Assembly (NCBI RefSeq): GCF_045037415.1
Contig: NZ_CP173438.1
Length of the DNA stretch: 64,000 nucleotides
Strand: one strand, 5' to 3'
From: Escherichia coli
GTDB lineage: Bacteria > Pseudomonadota > Gammaproteobacteria > Enterobacterales > Enterobacteriaceae
Notes under the pieces: generated by a model
What the model saw: the letters and a program-made list of their open reading frames with translations, nothing else
Told to the model about the DNA's origin: nothing
The model's database searches: none
In this document: positions 46,781 through 53,946 of the stretch, piece after piece
Layout: each line of letters opens with the position of its first letter
Position numbering within the stretch: the first letter of the stretch is position 1
Made by a program: the position numbers and the translations under genes

Positions 46781-48181
46781 ATGGACCAGAAGCTGTTAAC
46801 GGATTTCCGCTCAGAACTACTCGATTCACGTTTTGGTGCAAAGGCCATTTCTACTATCGCGGAGTCAAAACGATTTCCGCTGCACGAAATGCGCGATGAT
46901 GTTGCATTTCAGATTATCAATGATGAATTATATCTTGATGGCAACGCTCGTCAGAACCTGGCCACTTTCTGCCAGACCTGGGACGACGAAAACGTCCATA
47001 AATTGATGGATTTGTCGATCAATAAAAACTGGATCGACAAAGAAGAATATCCGCAATCTGCAGCAATCGACCTGCGTTGCGTAAACATGGTTGCCGATCT
47101 GTGGCATGCGCCTGCACCGAAAAATGGTCAGGCCGTTGGCACCAACACCATTGGCTCTTCCGAGGCCTGTATGCTCGGCGGGATGGCGATGAAATGGCGT
47201 TGGCGCAAGCGTATGGAAGCCGCAGGCAAACCCACGGATAAACCAAACCTGGTGTGCGGTCCGGTACAAATCTGCTGGCATAAATTCGCCCGCTACTGGG
47301 ATGTGGAGTTGCGTGAGATCCCTATGCGCCCCGGTCAGTTGTTTATGGACCCGAAACGCATGATTGAAGCCTGCGACGAAAACACCATCGGCGTGGTGCC
47401 GACTTTCGGCGTGACCTACACCGGTAACTATGAGTTCCCGCAGCCGCTGCACGATGCGCTGGATAAATTCCAGGCCGACACCGGTATCGACATCGACATG
47501 CACATCGACGCCGCCAGCGGTGGCTTCCTGGCACCGTTCGTCGCCCCGGATATCGTCTGGGACTTCCGCCTGCCGCGTGTGAAATCGATCAGTGCTTCAG
47601 GCCATAAATTCGGTCTGGCTCCGCTGGGCTGCGGCTGGGTTATCTGGCGTGATGAAGAAGCGCTGCCGCAGGAACTGGTGTTCAACGTTGACTACCTCGG
47701 CGGTCAGATTGGTACTTTCGCCATCAACTTCTCCCGCCCGGCGGGTCAGGTGATTGCACAGTACTATGAATTCCTGCGCCTCGGTCGTGAAGGCTATACC
47801 AAAGTACAGAACGCTTCCTACCAGGTTGCCGCTTATCTGGCGGATGAAATCGCCAAACTGGGGCCGTATGAGTTCATCTGTACCGGTCGCCCGGACGAAG
47901 GCATCCCGGCGGTTTGCTTCAAACTGAAAGATGGTGAAGATCCAGGATACACCCTGTACGACCTCTCTGAACGTCTGCGTCTGCGCGGCTGGCAGGTTCC
48001 GGCCTTCACTCTCGGCGGTGAAGCCACCGACATCGTGGTGATGCGCATTATGTGTCGTCGCGGCTTCGAAATGGACTTTGCTGAACTGTTGCTGGAAGAC
48101 TACAAAGCCTCCCTGAAATATCTCAGCGACCACCCGAAACTGCAGGGTATTGCCCAGCAGAACAGCTTTAAACACACCTGA
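46781..48181 (+). CDS. gadA: Glutamate decarboxylase alpha
   Basis: ORF 46718..48181 trimmed to ATG at 46781 ([40 protein letters not shown]...), 466 aa, preceded by AAGGAG. Called gadA rather than gadB from the gadX/gadW context. Confidence 0.95.
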
Positions 48182-48199
48182 TAACATCACGTTGTAAAA

Positions 48200-48245
48200 A
48201 CCGAATGCCCAACCTTTAAAAACAGGTGGGTATTCGGCTACTTAT
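48200..48245 (+). terminator. Rho-independent terminator downstream of gadA
   Basis: CCGAATGCCCA...TGGGTATTCGG inverted repeat followed by a T-containing tract. Confidence 0.45.
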
Positions 48246-48548
48246 TAATTGCAATAATATATTACCTGTCTATTCATCGTGTTGATAAGATATATGTTAT
48301 ATGAATGTTATGGAGCATAGCGATACTGCTTAATATTACGATGATGAATTATTTGCTTACTATTAATTCCTCTGCGTTCTTAAGTCCCCTTTTTATATAA
48401 TAAATCCAGTCATCCAGCCCGAGTATCATCGCTCATTATCATCCTGTTTTCCCGCTTCGTTTAAATTTATTTATCAATCAATTTGACTTAAGAGGGCGGC
48501 GTGCTACATTAATAAACAGTAATATGTTTATGTAATATTAAGTCAACT

Positions 48549-49373
48549 ATGCAACCACTACATGGTAATTGTCTAATTGCGTACGCAAGACATAAATATA
48601 TTCTCACCATGGTTAATGGTGAATATCGCTATTTTAATGGCGGTGATCTGGTTTTTGCGGATGCAAGCCAAATTCAAGTAGATAAGTGTGTTGAGAATTT
48701 CGTATTAGTTTCAAGAGACACGCTTTCATTATTTCTCCCGATGCTCAAGGAGGAGGCATTAAAACTTCATGTACATAAAAAAGTTCCTTCATTACTCGTT
48801 CATCACTGTACCAGAGATATTCCTGTTTTTCAGGAAGTTGCGCAACTATCGCAGAATAAGAATCTTCGCTATGCAGAAATGCTACGTAAAAGGGCATTAA
48901 TCTTTGCGTTGTTATCTGTTTTTCTTGAGGATACGCAGTTTATACCGTTACTTCTGAACGTGTTGCAACCGAATATGCGAACACGAGTTTGTACGGTCAT
49001 CAATAATAATATCGCCCATGAGTGGACATTAGCCCGAATTGCTAGCGAATTGTTGATGAGTCCAAGCCTGTTAAAGAAAAAATTGCGCGAAGAAGGTACG
49101 TCATATTCACAGTTGCTTACTGAGTGTAGGATGCAGCGTGCTTTACAACTTATTGTTATATATGGGGTTTCAATTAAGCGAGTTGCAGTATCCTGTGGAT
49201 ATCACAGCGTGTCGTATTTCATTTACGTTTTTCGAAATTATTATGGGATGACGCCCACAGAGTATCAGGAGCGATCGGCGCAGGAATTACCGAACTGTGG
49301 CTCGGCGGCAAGTATGGCTGCGCAAGGGATTTTTTACGGCACTGACCGTTCTGCGGAAGGAATAAGATTATAG
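48549..49373 (+). CDS. gadX: AraC-family acid resistance regulator GadX
   Basis: 274 aa (MQPLHGNCLIAYARHKYILTMVNGEYRYFNGGDLVFADASQIQ...), C-terminal AraC HTH. Confidence 0.95.
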   Translation: MQPLHGNCLIAYARHKYILTMVNGEYRYFNGGDLVFADASQIQVDKCVENFVLVSRDTLSLFLPMLKEEALKLHVHKKVPSLLVHHCTRDIPVFQEVAQLSQNKNLRYAEMLRKRALIFALLSVFLEDTQFIPLLLNVLQPNMRTRVCTVINNNIAHEWTLARIASELLMSPSLLKKKLREEGTSYSQLLTECRMQRALQLIVIYGVSIKRVAVSCGYHSVSYFIYVFRNYYGMTPTEYQERSAQELPNCGSAASMAAQGIFYGTDRSAEGIRL

Positions 49374-49389
49374 AGTTTTACTCAGACAT

Positions 49390-49495
49390 AAAAAAAACCC
49401 GGCATAGGGGACCGGGAAGAGGATAGTCTGCCGTCTCCAGACTAATAAACCGTTATAACACTCCCTGTTGGCACGGGAAACTTTGTGCTCTCAGT
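49390..49495 (-). ncRNA. gadY: GadY small RNA (antisense to gadX 3' UTR)
   Basis: Minus-strand sequence ACTGAGAGCACAAAGTTTCCCGTGCCAACAGGGAGTGTTATAACGGTTTATTAGTCTGGAGACGGCAGACTATCCTCTTCCCGGTCCCCTATGCCGGGTTTTTTTT matches GadY as I recall it, ending in a GC hairpin plus U-run. Confidence 0.8.
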
Positions 49496-49741
49496 AAGTT
49501 AAATATAACTTTTACTGGAAATAAGATCAGCCATTTTTTTATAAACATAAGCTATACGCTGTGTGAAAATATAATCGTGTTGCATTTACTTATTATCAAT
49601 TAACTGTTATGCAAAACTACTTTGTGGATAAAATTTGGTCCTACCAAATATGGCAGTTTTTGCACACAGAAACAGTCTGGCGTCATTTCATTAGTATACT
49701 GACATTGAAATAATCGCAGTAATGAAATATAAGGGATAGTC

Positions 49742-50470
49742 ATGGCTCATGTCTGCTCGGTGATCCTCGTTCGTCGTTCATTCGATATTCATCATGAACA
49801 GCAAAAAATATCGTTGCATAACGAGAGTATCCTGCTGCTGGATAAAAATTTGGCAGACGATTTTGCGTTTTGTTCACTGGATACGCGACGGCTGGATATC
49901 GAAGAGCTGACAGTTTGCCATTACTTACAAAATATTCGTCAGTTGCCACGCAATTTAGGATTGCATAGCAAAGACCGTTTGTTAATTAACCAGTCACCCC
50001 CCATACAGCTGGTGACGGCGATTTTTGATAGTTTCAATGACCCCCGGGTCAATTCGCCGATACTGAGCAAAATGCTCTATCTTTCCTGTTTATCAATGTT
50101 TTCTCATAAGAAAGAACTGATCCCCTTACTTTTCAATAGTATCAGTACTGTTTCAGGAAAAGTTGAACGCCTTATTAGCTTTGATATCGCTAAACGTTGG
50201 TATCTACGCGATATCGCAGAAAGAATGTACACCAGCGAGAGTCTCATCAAAAAAAAGTTGCAGGATGAAAATACCTGTTTCAGTAAAATATTACTCGCCT
50301 CCAGGATGTCGATGGCCAGACGATTACTCGAGTTACGTCAAATACCTCTGCATACTATTGCGGAAAAATGTGGCTATAGCAGTACGTCATACTTTATAAA
50401 TACATTTAGACAATATTATGGTGTAACGCCACATCAGTTTTCGCAACATTCGCCGGGTACCTTTTCCTGA
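49742..50470 (+). CDS. gadW: AraC-family acid resistance regulator GadW
   Basis: 242 aa (MAHVCSVILVRRSFDIHHEQQKISLHNESILLLDKN...), C-terminal AraC HTH. Confidence 0.95.
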   Translation: MAHVCSVILVRRSFDIHHEQQKISLHNESILLLDKNLADDFAFCSLDTRRLDIEELTVCHYLQNIRQLPRNLGLHSKDRLLINQSPPIQLVTAIFDSFNDPRVNSPILSKMLYLSCLSMFSHKKELIPLLFNSISTVSGKVERLISFDIAKRWYLRDIAERMYTSESLIKKKLQDENTCFSKILLASRMSMARRLLELRQIPLHTIAEKCGYSSTSYFINTFRQYYGVTPHQFSQHSPGTFS

Positions 50471-50832
50471 CATATTTCGCATTTGAATATTGGTCAGGAT
50501 CTCACGTCTGCTTCATGTGAAACTCTTTCCTGATGATTTCTGCCGGGCTACCGGCTAGTTCTCTTTCGCAGTTTGCCAGGCGGTATAGGTATTTTCAGGA
50601 GGAAAAGACTCGGCATGTTTGGGATTATTAAGCTAACAATTCATACGATTACGGGAATGTGGGTCAGTATTGTGCTGTTCAAATTGATGACGAATGGCTG
50701 GAGTGGTTTCTACTTTCAGTGCTGTGTACTAAGCCTGGTATTCCTGACGGTTAGCTGGTTGTTGAGTGGTGAATGGTTAGCAGGAAAGAGTAAGGCTGAA
50801 CCCTCACGTTCAACCTTACTCTCATTTACACG

Positions 50833-53800
50833 TTACGCTTTTTTAAAGCGGGCAAAGAGATGTTCCACTACAACGAAAAAGACCGGAACGAAGTAAATTG
50901 CCAGCACTGTTGCGGCAAACATCCCGCCCATTACGCCGGTACCTACCGCGTTTTGCGCGCCAGAGCCGGCACCATGACTGATAACCAGCGGCAGCACGCC
51001 GAGAATAAAGGCCAGAGAAGTCATCAGGATTGGGCGTAAACGCATACGCGCTGCTTCGATGATTGCCTCTACCGGTGTTTTCCCTTCTTTCTGCATCATC
51101 TCAACGGCAAATTCGACAATCAGGATGGCGTTCTTGGCGGAAAGCCCGATGGTGGTCAGCAAACCAACCTGGAAGTAAACGTCATTACTTAAGCCGCGCA
51201 GATCGGTGGCCAGTAATGCGCCAACGACGCCTAACGGAACAACCAACATCACCGAGAACGGAATTGACCAGCTTTCATAAAGTGCGGCGAGGGCGAGGAA
51301 CACCACGACCAGTGAAATGGCATATAGCGCGGGAGCCTGATTTGAGGATAACGCTTCCTGATACGACAGTCCGGTCCATGAGTAGCCGACGCCTGCCGGA
51401 AGTTTTGCGACCAGGTCTGCCATAAATTTCATGGCGTCACCGGTACTTTTCCCGGCAGCCGCTTCACCTAAAATCTCCATTGACGGGATGCCGTTGTAGC
51501 GTTCCAGTCGCGGTGAACCATAGGTCCATTCGGTAGACGAATAGGCAGAAAGCGGTGCCATCGTGCCAGAGGCGTTGCGTACATACCATTGGTTGATGTT
51601 ATCCGGCAACATACGGAACGGCGTGCCTGCCTGGACATACACTTTTTTCACCCGCCCCTGGTTGAGGAAGTCGTTCACGTAGCTGCTGCCGAAGGCGGTG
51701 GAAATTGTCTGGTTGATATCAGACAGCGCCACACCCATAGCCTCGGCTTTCGCAGCGTTGACGTTCACTTTGAACATCGGCGTATCTTCCAGGCCGTTCG
51801 GGCGTACCCCGATGACCTGATTCGGTGATTGCGCTGCCAGTGATAACAGCTCGTTTCGCGCCTGGGTCAGTTTTTCGTGCCCCAGATTGCCGTTGTCCAG
51901 CAGTTCCATATCAAAACCTGACGCGGTACCCAGTTCAGCCACCGCGGGTAAGTTGAACGGGAAGACGACGGCTTTATTGATACTGCTTAGCGCAATCATT
52001 GCCCGCTGAATAATCGCGGTAACCGAGTTTTCCTCGCCGACACGTTCAGACCACGGCTTGAGGCTGATAAACGCCAGACCGTTGTTTTGCCCCTGACCAC
52101 TGAAGCCAAAGCCACCAACGGTAAACACCGACTGAACATTATTTTTCTCTTTTGTCAGATAATAATCCGTCACCTGTTGTAGCACTTTCGTGGTGTTAAC
52201 CATGGTTGCACCGGAAGGTAACTGCGCGGTGGTCATAAATACCCCCTGATCCTCTTCTGGTAAGAAAGAGGTCGGCGTACGCAGGAACAGCACCGCCATC
52301 CCGGCGCAAATCAGTAGGTAGACCACCATGTAGCGACCGGTACAACGCAACAGCGAGCGGGTGCTGTCGGTATAGTGCTGAGTTGATTTTTCAAACAGCG
52401 TGTTGAAGCGTGCGAACAGGGCGTTAGGTTTGTGACCGCCCTCCGGCGCGGCTTTCAGAATGGTGGCGCACAGGGCAGGGGTCAGGCTCATTGCTACAAA
52501 TACTGAAAGCAGCATGGAGGAGATCAGCGTGATGGAGAACTGGCGGTAGATCTCCCCGGTCGCACCGCTCATAAAGGCCATCGGCATAAACACTGCGGAA
52601 AGAACAACGGCAATCCCGACCAGCGCACGTTGGATCTGCCCCATCGATTTATGCGTCGCTTCCTTCGGCGGTAGCTTATCTTCCGCAATGACACGCTCGA
52701 CGTTCTCCACCACCACGATGGCGTCATCCACCAGTAACCCTATCGCCAGCACCATCCCGAACATAGTTAACGTGTTGATGGTGAAACCAACTGCCGACAA
52801 GATCGCAAACGTCCCGAGAATAACCACCGGTACGGCAATCGTCGGGATGATTGTGGCGCGGAAATTCTGCAAAAACAGATACATGACCAGGAAGACGAGG
52901 ATGATAGCCTCAACCAGCGTTTTGAAAACTTCCTGAATAGAAATTTTGATAAACGGTGTGGTGTCGTAAGGATAAACCGTCTTCAGGCTTGCAGGGAAAT
53001 AAGCCGATAAACGGTTCAGCTCCTCTTTCACCGCTCGCGAGGTATCCAGGGCGTTTGCTCCGGTAGCCAGTTTGATGGCGATCCCGGCGGCAGGTTTGCC
53101 GTTATAGCGCGCCACGGTGGAATAATCTTCCGCCCCAAGTTCGACGCGGGCGACATCACGCAGCAGCACTTGCGAACCATCTTGCTGAACTTTCAACAGG
53201 ATTTTGCCAAATTCTTCCGGCGTTTGCAGACGCGTCTGCACAATGATCGAGGCGTTCAGTTGCTGGTCTGCCGCCTGTGGCATGCCACCCAGTTGACCAC
53301 CAGAAATCTGGTTGTTTTGCACCTTAATCTGGGAAATAACATCGGAAGGTACCAGGTTATATTTATTGAGTTTTTGCGGGTCCAGCCAGATACGCATGGC
53401 GTACTCGGAACCAAAGAGCTGTACGCTACCAACGCCCGCGGTACGGCTTAGCGGGTCTTTGATATTAGACGCTACATAGTCCGCGATATCGTACTGGTTG
53501 AGGCTGCCGTTATCAGAAATAAATGCCGCTACCATCAGGATATTACTGCTCGACTTATCGACGCTAATCCCCTGCTGCTGCACCGCTTCAGGTAATGAAG
53601 GCATAGCGAGTTGCAGTTTATTTTGCACCTGAACCTGTGCGATATCAGGCGATGTCCCCGTCTCGAAGGTCAGAGTGATGGAGGCATTACCTGCCGCATC
53701 GCTGGTTGAAGACATGTACATCAGGCCATCAAGCCCATTCATATTTTGCTCAATCACCTGAGTGACCGAGTCTTCTACCGTTTGCGCATCGGCACCCGGA

Positions 53801-53946
53801 TAGGTTGCGCTGACGGTAATGGTCGGTGGCGCAATCTGCGGATACTGCGCAACCGGTAAGTTCATGATCGCCAGACCGCCTGCAAGCATCATAATAATGG
53901 CAAGTACCCAGGCAAAAACCGGGCGATCAATAAAATAGTTAGCCAT
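50833..53946 (-). CDS. mdtF: RND multidrug efflux pump inner-membrane transporter MdtF
   Basis: 1037 aa AcrB-like RND transporter ([41 protein letters not shown]...). Confidence 0.95.

What the first reader, a model, noticed from the sequence alone, without database searches (positions are those of the whole stretch)
50612..50896. Candidate unannotated small membrane protein ORF between gadW and mdtF
An ATG at about 50612 is preceded by a canonical AGGAGG Shine-Dalgarno (about 9-nt spacing) and opens a 94-codon frame encoding two strongly hydrophobic segments (MFGIIKLTIHTITGMWVSIVLFKLM and FYFQCCVLSLVFLTVSWLLSGEWLA). No gene is annotated in this intergenic region in K-12 as far as I recall. 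Caveats: the 3' third of the frame overlaps the mdtF stop region on the opposite strand and contains the mdtF terminator hairpin (about 50788-50823), so any real product may be shorter or the ORF may be fortuitous.
Basis: inference. Interest (0 to 1): 0.35.

Follow-up and report, generated by a model that had tools for sequence, protein, structure and literature searches.

The report
Unannotated small membrane protein gene sORF15
The open reading frame between gadW and mdtF is real and evolves like a true gene for a small two-helix inner-membrane protein made with the acid-resistance regulator GadW, but two ribosome-profiling papers have already reported it (XECs371 in 2017, sORF15 in 2023), so it is a confirmed, still-unannotated gene of unknown function, not a new discovery.

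Summary
The ORF exists: ATG 50615, TAA 50894-50896, 93 codons. AGGAGG lies at 50597-50602, 12 nt before the ATG, not 9. RefSeq annotates nothing there, in K-12 or elsewhere. It is not new. It equals sORF15 of Schumacher et al. 2023 (K-12 3663464-3663745, one residue different; Ribo-seq +4.2 log2 at pH 4.4; FLAG fusion detected) and XECs371 of Hücker et al. 2017 (O157:H7 Sakai).

My tests support a real gene. It is intact with no indel in six other Escherichia species-level genomes, K-12 and five divergent E. coli alleles. Codons 1-57 give pN/pS 0.18, against 0.8-2.4 in unrelated frames, and variable sites by codon position are 17/10/34. The SD block is invariant, while the upstream spacer has indels.

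E. fergusonii has a 54-aa orthologue in the same gadW-ORF-mdtF position that ends after helix 2. The functional unit is therefore the two-helix core with an invariant GWSGF..CC turn. The basic tail (codons 58-93) runs through the mdtF terminator hairpin and 64 nt of antisense mdtF, and those constraints explain its conservation.

No relatives were found outside Escherichia, and no known family matches. Function is unknown; the best guess is an acid-induced modulator of a larger membrane protein. Novelty: already known.

The parts
49742..50470 (+). gadW, the AraC-family acid-resistance activator. It is the upstream cistron of the presumed shared transcript.
   Evidence: the ORF listing; RefSeq annotation of the identical sequence.
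50597..50602 (+). Shine-Dalgarno AGGAGG, part of the invariant block TTTTCAGGAGGAAAA, 12 nt upstream of the ATG.
   Evidence: Sequence. The block is invariant in 8 Escherichia sequences, while the flanking spacer is 75-77% identical with indels in the four most divergent. The local RNA is less structured than 194 of 200 shuffles.
50615..50896 (+). The ORF itself (= sORF15 / XECs371): 93 codons plus TAA.
   Evidence: It is 99% identical to K-12 sORF15 in Table S7 of PMC10746267. It is intact with no indels in all orthologues.
50618..50692 (+). Codons 2-26: predicted transmembrane helix 1.
   Evidence: Hydropathy, AF2 helix 2-26 at pLDDT about 72-79, purifying selection.
50693..50725 (+). Codons 27-37: the turn and start of helix 2, NGWSGFYFQCC. 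This is the most conserved motif; G28 W29 S30 G31 F32 F34 C36 C37 are invariant, including in E. fergusonii.
   Evidence: Alignments A2 and A3.
50705..50782 (+). Codons 31-56: predicted transmembrane helix 2.
   Evidence: Hydropathy maximum 1.81; AF2 helix 31-56.
50783..50893 (+). Codons 57-93: basic C-terminal tail (residues 55-93: 11 K/R, net +10). It is a lineage-specific extension and is absent in E. fergusonii.
   Evidence: Charge count; the E. fergusonii orthologue stops after helix 2; rare frameshift alleles change only the tail; the overlap gives no independent selection signal.
50787..50822 (-). mdtF terminator-type hairpin, lying inside codons 58-70 of the ORF.
   Evidence: 16 continuous pairs and -26.1 kcal/mol on the minus strand, against -18.7 on the plus strand. 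L006 has a compensatory T-A to C-G change, and in L008 pairing survives only as a minus-strand G.U.
50833..50896 (-). The last 20 sense codons and stop of mdtF, plus part of a 21st codon, antisense to codons 73-93 of the ORF. Third codon positions of the two frames coincide.

Best explanation
This is a real, conserved protein-coding gene. It is the same gene already reported as sORF15 (E. coli K-12) and XECs371 (O157:H7 Sakai). It encodes a small inner-membrane helical hairpin: two transmembrane helices (about residues 2-26 and 31-56) joined by a very short, invariant turn (N/H)GWSGF(Y/F)F(Q/H)CC. By the positive-inside rule, both ends face the cytoplasm (inferred). It lies 144 nt downstream of gadW with no promoter-like site of its own. 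It is most likely translated from its own Shine-Dalgarno site as the distal cistron of gadW/gadXW mRNA, so it is made when the Gad regulon is induced (pH 4.4). The selected unit is the two-helix core. In E. coli and its close relatives the frame has no stop after helix 2, so it runs on through the mdtF terminator hairpin and 64 nt of antisense mdtF. This adds a 37-39-residue basic tail whose sequence is held in place by those other constraints. Shown here or in the cited papers: the ORF, translation, acid induction, purifying selection, and restriction to Escherichia. Inferred: topology and co-transcription. Speculative, roughly 0.3: it acts, like other bacterial small membrane proteins, by binding and tuning a larger membrane protein of the acid response, with the adjacent MdtEF pump or GadC as the obvious candidates.
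For: Identity with published ORFs: Table S7 of PMC10746267 gives sORF15 at NC_000913.3:3663464-3663745(-). Its sequence matches the window ORF except C65 in K-12 versus R65 here. XECs371 in PMC5597208 contains the same peptide. Translation, from those papers: Ribo-seq log2FC is +4.2 and RNA +4.0 at pH 4.4, with TE unchanged; GadW Ribo-seq is +3.0; a Western blot detected sORF15:3xFLAG. In Sakai, RIBOseq RPKM was 23 and 49 with RCV 1.2 and 1.5 in the first two conditions tabulated. Evolution, tested here: gadW-anchored loci from six Escherichia species-level genomes all carry 93 intact codons with 0 gap columns of 282, against 14 of 125 in the upstream spacer. For codons 1-57, pN/pS is 0.18 in frame, against 0.8-2.4 in unrelated frames. 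Variable sites by codon position are 17/10/34 (binomial p = 2.7e-4). Against E. albertii, dN is 0.055 and dS 1.09. The product is 83-89% identical where GadW is 74-76%. Five divergent E. coli alleles show 17 synonymous and 2 nonsynonymous differences. All 59 sampled genomes keep the exact length, and 5412 of 5414 genomes keep at least 80% of the ORF. The E. fergusonii 54-aa orthologue sits in the same gadW-ORF-mdtF-mdtE-gadE-hdeD synteny, with codon-position differences 24/11/38. The SD block is invariant and the RBS unstructured. No promoter-like site lies in 50300-51000. Hydropathy and AF2 agree on two TM helices.
Against: No protein from the native chromosomal locus has been shown; the Western blot used a pBAD plasmid. 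Stringer et al.'s start-site supplement does not list it. The SD-ATG spacing of 12 nt is longer than the usual optimum. E. fergusonii lacks the AGGAGG and the ATG, with GTG starts 19 nt after gadW, so the translation signals are not conserved genus-wide. The plus-strand hairpin (-18.7 kcal/mol) could terminate some transcripts before the stop codon. Nothing here or in the literature tests function, partner or topology. Synteny with mdtF is simply inherited within one genus and is not independent evidence of a functional link. AF2 confidence is modest (mean pLDDT 64).
Confidence: 0.85

Rival explanations
1. A real gene, but much of the product in cells is shorter than 93 residues. Transcripts that end at the hairpin (about 50822) lack the stop codon, so ribosomes would stall and the roughly 70-residue product would be tmRNA-tagged. 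Alternatively, only the roughly 56-residue core matters.
For: The hairpin lies inside codons 58-70 and still folds at -18.7 kcal/mol on the ORF strand. E. fergusonii's orthologue is 54 aa and ends before its terminator. A natural single-A deletion allele replaces the tail while gadW and mdtF stay intact. The E2593 allele shifts the tail. Tail conservation is explained by the hairpin and mdtF.
Against: [quoted passage not shown] The plus-strand hairpin has an internal C.A mismatch and is followed by CAUUUACACG, not a U-tract. The tail frame is intact in all 8 species-level sequences, and the single-A deletion is absent from 4939 complete genomes.
Confidence: 0.15
2. The peptide is irrelevant and the act of translation is what matters. 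Ribosomes on the ORF would shield the gadW 3' region from Rho and carry transcription or translation across the mdtF terminator into antisense mdtF, coupling gadW expression to mdtEF mRNA fate.
For: The ORF overlaps mdtF convergently by 64 nt and contains its terminator hairpin. Both transcripts belong to the same acid regulon (established knowledge).
Against: The amino-acid sequence of codons 1-57 is under strong purifying selection, with dN/dS 0.05-0.29 and an invariant GWSGF..CC motif. A purely cis-acting ORF does not need that. In E. fergusonii the ORF stops 41 nt before mdtF, with the terminator between them, so the overlap is not conserved.
Confidence: 0.06
3. A fortuitous ORF in a non-coding gadW 3' UTR, with the ribosome footprints being noise and the conservation due to RNA or DNA elements.
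For: The SD-spacer-ATG pattern alone is at chance frequency in the window. No annotation pipeline calls the ORF in E. coli. No known family matches.
Against: The frame-specific substitution pattern (pN/pS 0.18 against about 1 in other frames, 34 of 61 variable sites at third positions) cannot come from an RNA or DNA element. There are no indels over 282 nt across the genus, against 14 gap columns in the 125-column spacer. Only 1.6% of shuffles give such an ORF. Two independent Ribo-seq studies and a tagged product support translation.
Confidence: 0.03
4. The gene starts further upstream: at the TTG at 50573 (107 aa, as the ORF listing reports) or the 117-aa form given for XECs371.
For: The frame is open upstream of the ATG for at least 25 codons in all sequences. 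Hücker et al. list the longer form.
Against: The upstream translation is poorly conserved (SLPGGIGIF / SLQNSKRIF / SSQTGISIF). The TTG is lost in L005, and L004 has an 11-nt (frame-breaking) deletion upstream. A longer start would place the invariant AGGAGG inside the coding region. E. fergusonii's ORF begins 19 nt after gadW with the homologous (I/F)GIIKL. Schumacher's construct with only 15 nt upstream was translated.
Confidence: 0.03

Closest known systems
sORF15 of Schumacher et al. 2023 (mSystems 8:e01037-23; PMC10746267), E. coli K-12 MG1655 3663464-3663745 (-)
   Same: The same gene: same position in the gadW 3' region overlapping mdtF, same 93 codons, same ATG and SD, and 92 of 93 residues identical (C65 in K-12, R65 here). 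The paper already gives two predicted TM helices, an AF2 third helix, acid induction and a FLAG Western.
   Different: Only the strain differs. The paper did not report selection analysis, the short E. fergusonii orthologue, or the core/tail distinction. Its reported homologues in Vibrio, Klebsiella, Salmonella and Enterococcus were not reproduced in exhaustive searches.
XECs371 of Hücker et al. 2017 (PLoS One 12:e0184119; PMC5597208), E. coli O157:H7 Sakai 4405602-4405955 (-)
   Same: The same ORF, detected by RIBOseq, predicted to be inner membrane with 2 TM helices, and classed 'real' by their classifier.
   Different: It is listed with a 24-residue N-terminal extension that conservation does not support. 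It is one of 465 candidates and was not studied individually.
E. fergusonii ATCC 35469 'hypothetical protein; putative exported protein' (P0050, 54 aa; CU928158.2)
   Same: A positional orthologue between the GadW orthologue (62% identical) and mdtF. It is 49% identical over 41 residues, with two hydrophobic helices and the HGWSGFFFHCC turn.
   Different: It has no AGGAGG or ATG (GTG starts 19 nt after gadW) and no C-terminal tail. It does not overlap mdtF, and a separate GC-rich hairpin sits between the two stops.
AcrZ, the 49-aa accessory protein of the RND pump AcrB (a functional analogy only)
   Same: A small hydrophobic inner-membrane protein co-regulated with an RND efflux pump. MdtF is an AcrB paralogue and the ORF lies next to mdtF. 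AcrZ pull-downs also enrich MdtF, so MdtF may accept small-protein partners.
   Different: AcrZ has one TM helix, not two. There is no sequence similarity, since no Pfam family, AcrZ included, is hit at E<=1. AcrZ is encoded away from acrAB. No binding data exist for this ORF.

Membership tests
sORF15 / XECs371 orthologous group | Sequence identity to the published K-12 sORF15 nucleotide and peptide sequence | tested here: met
   92 of 93 residues are identical to Table S7; tblastn gives 98.9% identity to NC_000913.3.
sORF15 / XECs371 orthologous group | Position downstream of gadW, same strand, convergent with and overlapping the 3' end of mdtF | tested here: met
sORF15 / XECs371 orthologous group | Acid-induced ribosome occupancy in this strain | not testable with these tools
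   Known only for K-12 and, without acid stress, for Sakai.
Bona fide protein-coding gene | Frame-specific purifying selection (dN/dS well below 1, excess of third-position changes) | tested here: met
   pN/pS is 0.18 in frame against 0.8-2.4 in unrelated frames; sites 17/10/34, p = 2.7e-4; within E. coli, 17 synonymous against 2 nonsynonymous.
Bona fide protein-coding gene | Reading frame kept intact across related genomes | tested here: met
   There are 0 gap columns of 282 in 8 species-level sequences. All 59 sampled genomes have the exact length. None of 4939 carries the single-A deletion allele. Only 2 IS insertions were found in 5414 genomes.
Bona fide protein-coding gene | Protein detected from the native locus | not testable with these tools
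   Only a plasmid-borne 3xFLAG fusion has been reported.
Two-pass inner-membrane small protein | Two hydrophobic helices long enough to span the membrane | tested here: met
   Kyte-Doolittle maxima are 1.68 and 1.81. AF2 gives helices 2-26 and 31-56. Two prediction pipelines in the cited papers agree.
Two-pass inner-membrane small protein | Membrane localisation and N-in/C-in topology | not testable with these tools
   Inferred from the positive-inside rule: the tail is net +10 and the turn is only 4-5 residues.
AcrZ-like RND-pump accessory proteins | Sequence membership of the AcrZ family | tested here: not met
   No Pfam or NCBIfam family is hit at E<=1. No PDB chain matches beyond a chance hit at E = 2.2.
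AcrZ-like RND-pump accessory proteins | Single TM helix | tested here: not met
   Two TM helices are predicted.
AcrZ-like RND-pump accessory proteins | Physical binding to the RND permease | not testable with these tools
   No interaction data exist; adjacency to mdtF is the only hint.

The most novel reading that the evidence does not exclude
The two-helix core is a dedicated, acid-induced partner of a large membrane protein in the acid fitness island. The most attractive candidate is an accessory subunit that tunes the adjacent MdtEF-TolC efflux pump (an AcrZ-like role reached by an unrelated, Escherichia-specific protein); the alternative is the GadC antiporter. The invariant membrane-edge GWSGF..CC motif would be the contact or sensing site. 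A further twist the evidence leaves open: in E. coli, translation of the tail across the mdtF terminator adds a cis link between gadW and mdtEF expression.
Probability: 0.15. Interest if true: 0.6.

Novelty: already known. Interest (0 to 1): 0.25.

Why it matters
The acid fitness island is one of the most studied loci in E. coli, yet a conserved 93-codon gene inside it is still missing from the K-12 reference and from every RefSeq E. coli annotation sampled. The selection evidence here, added to two published Ribo-seq detections, is enough to justify annotating it. Knowing that the conserved unit is the roughly 56-residue two-helix core with a GWSGF..CC turn tells experimenters which part to mutate and which part (the tail) can be tagged or truncated. 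Any deletion or tagging of the mdtF 3' end or the gadW 3' UTR also alters this gene, which matters when interpreting existing mutants. The discovery itself is not new and the function remains unknown, so the value is confirmatory.

Tried and rejected
- **Known families:** Pfam, NCBIfam, PADLOC and PHROGs gave nothing apart from one chance-level PHROG at E = 0.09. A PDB sequence profile search gave only a chance hit at E = 2.2.
- **Remote homologues:** an exhaustive HMMER profile search of 1.84 billion representatives, plus a second word-indexed search with an alignment including E. fergusonii, found nothing outside Escherichia.
- **Rfam (48000-52000):** only GadY; no RNA family covers the ORF.
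- **Other start-site and 3'-end datasets:** the Stringer 2021 supplement has no entry. The Weaver 2019 preprint has no supplements held. The held Adams 2021 Term-seq supplements have nothing for this locus. Meydan 2019 is not held.
- **Follow-up papers on sORF15:** none found.
- **Independent selection on the tail in the mdtF overlap:** no power, because 80% of mdtF-synonymous changes (100% of transitions) are also synonymous in the ORF.
- **Apparent truncated alleles:** P0054 (46 aa) was rejected as assembly error, because the same contigs carry scattered indels and a fragmented mdtF.
- **Type I toxin-like peptide:** considered and not pursued. It has two TM helices, a canonical SD and no antisense RNA over the start, and the induced FLAG-tagged protein accumulated to a detectable level.
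- **AF2 of an MdtF-ORF fusion:** considered, but the tool returns no interface or PAE information, so the result could not be judged.
- **Fold search with the monomer model:** skipped, because a two-helix hairpin at mean pLDDT 64 gives uninformative matches.
Full report
**1. What is in the sequence**

The window carries the E. coli acid fitness island in the order:
- gadX, 48549-49373 (+)
- GadY, 49385-49498 (-), Rfam 150 bits
- gadW, 49742-50470 (+)
- mdtF, 50833-53946 (-), convergent with gadW

The stretch is 100% identical to strain SK1144 and about 98% to K-12, so the window is not K-12.

- The ATG is at 50615, not 50612.
- The stop TAA is at 50894-50896, giving 93 sense codons.
- AGGAGG is at 50597-50602, leaving a 12-nt spacer, not 9.

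The two hydrophobic segments score 1.68 and 1.81 on a 19-residue Kyte-Doolittle window. AlphaFold2 gives helices 2-26, 31-56 and 62-89. Mean pLDDT is 64, about 70-79 on the two membrane helices and low elsewhere.

The hairpin is at 50787-50822. It has 16 continuous pairs and -26.1 kcal/mol on the mdtF-sense strand. On the ORF-sense strand it has -18.7 kcal/mol and an internal mismatch. The ORF overlaps mdtF by 64 nt.

An ATG ORF this long arises in 31 of 2000 dinucleotide shuffles. The SD-spacer-ATG pattern by itself is at chance level, 3 found against 2.46 expected. The RBS region is less structured than 194 of 200 shuffles.

No CDS is annotated here in NC_000913.3 or in any of about 100 sampled RefSeq E. 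coli genomes.

**2. It is already in the literature, twice**

Schumacher et al. 2023 (PMC10746267) found 'sORF15' by inspecting the gadW 3' UTR in acid-stress Ribo-seq of MG1655.
- Their Table S7 places it at NC_000913.3:3663464-3663745(-). The nucleotide and peptide sequences match this ORF apart from C65 (K-12) versus R65 (window).
- At pH 4.4 versus 7.6, Ribo-seq log2FC is +4.2 and RNA +4.0, with translation efficiency unchanged. There is no induction at pH 5.8.
- They also report two TM helices by DeepTMHMM, an AF2 third helix, and a Western blot of a pBAD24 sORF15:3xFLAG construct carrying 15 nt of native leader.
- GadW itself is +3.0 log2.

Hücker et al. 2017 (PMC5597208) list the same peptide as XECs371 in O157:H7 Sakai, with a 24-residue N-terminal extension.
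- RIBOseq RPKM was 23 and 49, with ribosome coverage values 1.2 and 1.5, in the first two conditions tabulated.
- It was predicted 'inner membrane, 2 TM' and classed 'real'.

I found no follow-up study.

**3. Independent test: is it a real gene?**

To avoid bias towards intact ORFs, I collected orthologous loci with GadW as the anchor. These were three E. coli-like species-level genomes, Escherichia sp. E1V33, E. whittamii and E. albertii.

- **Frame integrity.** All carry the ORF at exactly 93 codons. There are 0 gap columns of 282, whereas the 125-column gadW-ORF spacer has 14 gap columns and is only 75-77% identical in the four most divergent genomes.
- **Shine-Dalgarno.** The block TTTTCAGGAGGAAAA is invariant.
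- **Selection in the clean region.** Codons 1-57 are free of both the hairpin and mdtF. There, Nei-Gojobori pN/pS summed over pairs is 0.18 in the ORF frame. It is 0.80, 1.31, 0.80 and 2.38 in four other frames. The antisense frame that shares wobble positions gives 0.27 but contains 24 stops.
- **Codon positions.** Variable sites fall 17/10/34 by codon position (binomial p = 2.7e-4).
- **Against E. albertii.** dN is 0.055 and dS 1.09.
- **Compared with GadW.** The product is 83-89% identical in species where GadW is only 74-76% identical.
- **Within E. coli.** Five of the most divergent alleles differ from the window by 17 synonymous and 2 nonsynonymous changes, and all are intact. All 59 full-length hits sampled across 5414 genomes span exactly the query length.
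- **Disruptions.** The only large ones are an IS66 and an IS3 insertion in two genomes.
- **Start codon.** The frame upstream of the ATG is open, but its translation is not conserved. The TTG is lost in one lineage, and an 11-nt deletion breaks the frame in another. The ATG at 50615 is therefore the start.

**4. Core versus tail**

An exhaustive HMMER profile search of 1.84 billion representatives returned 19 hits. All were E. coli-type sequences or fragments, except one 54-aa protein, P0050.

P0050 is encoded in E. fergusonii ATCC 35469 in the same synteny: GadW orthologue (62% identical), then the ORF, then convergent mdtF-mdtE-gadE-hdeD.
- It is 49% identical to the E. coli protein over 41 residues.
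- Differences by codon position are 24/11/38, with pN 0.33 against a saturated pS of 0.93.
- It keeps GIIKL and HGWSGFFFHCC.
- It stops right after helix 2, 41 nt short of mdtF, with its own GC-rich hairpin between the two stops.

In E. coli, codons 58-70 are the arms and loop of the mdtF terminator. That hairpin shows a compensatory T-A to C-G change in E1V33, both sides synonymous in the ORF. In E. albertii pairing is preserved only as a G.U on the minus strand.

Codons 73-93 are antisense to the last codons of mdtF, with third positions aligned. 80% of mdtF-synonymous changes, and all transitions, are also synonymous in the ORF. The five observed changes, all doubly synonymous, therefore say nothing about selection on the tail.

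Rare alleles alter only the tail:
- A single-A deletion at GGAAAGAG gives 76 aa. It occurs in Illumina assemblies with intact gadW and mdtF, but is absent from 4939 complete genomes.
- An extra T in the T6 run in Escherichia sp. E2593 also lengthens MdtF to 1043 aa.

I conclude that the selected unit is the two-helix core. The basic tail (residues 55-93, net +10) is a lineage-specific read-through held in place by other constraints. It would still reinforce a C-terminus-inside topology.

**5. How it most likely works**

- **Shown, here or in the cited papers:** translation, acid induction in parallel with gadW, purifying selection, and restriction to Escherichia.
- **Inferred:** an N-in/C-in hairpin in the inner membrane; expression as the distal cistron of gadW/gadXW mRNA from its own SD. 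No promoter-like site lies in 50300-51000. RNA and Ribo-seq rise together with TE unchanged.
- **Speculative (about 0.3):** it acts by binding a larger membrane protein of the acid response. MdtEF and GadC are the candidates Schumacher et al. also name. AcrZ pull-downs enrich MdtF, so MdtF may accept small partners, but nothing links this ORF to it beyond adjacency.

It matches no family in Pfam, NCBIfam or PADLOC and no solved structure; the only PHROGs and PDB hits are at chance level, E = 0.09 and 2.2.

**6. Rivals**

- **Fortuitous ORF:** excluded for practical purposes by the frame-specific substitution pattern.
- **Purely cis-acting translated ORF:** unlikely, because the peptide sequence is conserved and the overlap is absent in E. 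fergusonii.
- **Longer N-terminus:** not supported by conservation.
- **Shorter product:** a share of shorter, non-stop products caused by the internal hairpin remains possible (about 0.15) and needs 3'-end mapping and native tagging.

**7. Verdict**

Novelty is 'already known': it is published as XECs371 and sORF15, although still unannotated. This analysis adds:
- the selection evidence
- the E. fergusonii orthologue
- the core/tail distinction
- the finding that the reported homologues in other genera cannot be reproduced

Interest is low to moderate.

Noticed in passing
window 50517-50558 (+): sORF14 of Schumacher et al. 2023 (GTG..TAG, 13 aa) is not conserved. Its stop is lost (TAG to AAG) in five of the six other species-level sequences (all but L004), there are 1-nt indels, and L004 has an 11-nt deletion. 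It is probably not a gene.
   Followed up: partly
window 50542-50555 (+), with a T-rich tail to about 50570: A GCCGG-GCUA-CCGGC stem-loop followed by UAGUUCUCUUU looks like a terminator. The stem is kept across Escherichia species through G.U-compatible changes. It could be a leaky gadW terminator that sets how much transcript reaches the ORF. Its folding energy is not unusual (z = -0.6).
   Followed up: partly
window 50465-50499 (+): A 7-bp stem, UCCUGAC/GUCAGGA, spans the gadW stop codon. It is essentially invariant in all eight Escherichia sequences while its 21-nt loop varies. A C-to-U change in L005 keeps a G.U on the plus strand. Its function is unknown; it may be an RNA stability or processing element.
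   Followed up: no
window 50533-50631 (+): A 32-aa ORF in another frame equals XECs372 of Hücker et al. 2017, which had a higher ribosome coverage value (2.6-2.7) than XECs371. It covers the SD and start codon of the main ORF, so its signal is probably that ORF's initiation peak.
   Followed up: no
L010 (E. coli O121 strain 201805972) and L026 (strain SW070912): Natural knock-outs: an IS66 element and an IS3 element inserted in the ORF, the IS3 at about codon 41. These are the only two of 5414 matching complete genomes where less than 80% of the ORF aligns. They could serve as natural mutants.
   Followed up: partly
L020 (Escherichia sp. E2593), equivalent to window 50843-50848: An extra T in the T6 run shifts the ORF's tail and also changes the MdtF C-terminus (1043 aa, not 1037). 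It may be a real allele or a sequencing error.
   Followed up: no
literature: Published homologues of this ORF at over 80-100% identity in Klebsiella, Vibrio, Salmonella, Enterococcus and Staphylococcus epidermidis were not reproduced. Exhaustive searches found only Escherichia sequences, so those records are probably mislabelled or contaminated assemblies.
   Followed up: partly
window 50833-50896 versus 50897-50960 (mdtF): The 64 nt of mdtF that overlap the ORF have 5 variable sites among 8 sequences, against 11 in the next 64 nt. This hints at extra constraint on the overlap, but the numbers are too small to judge.
   Followed up: no
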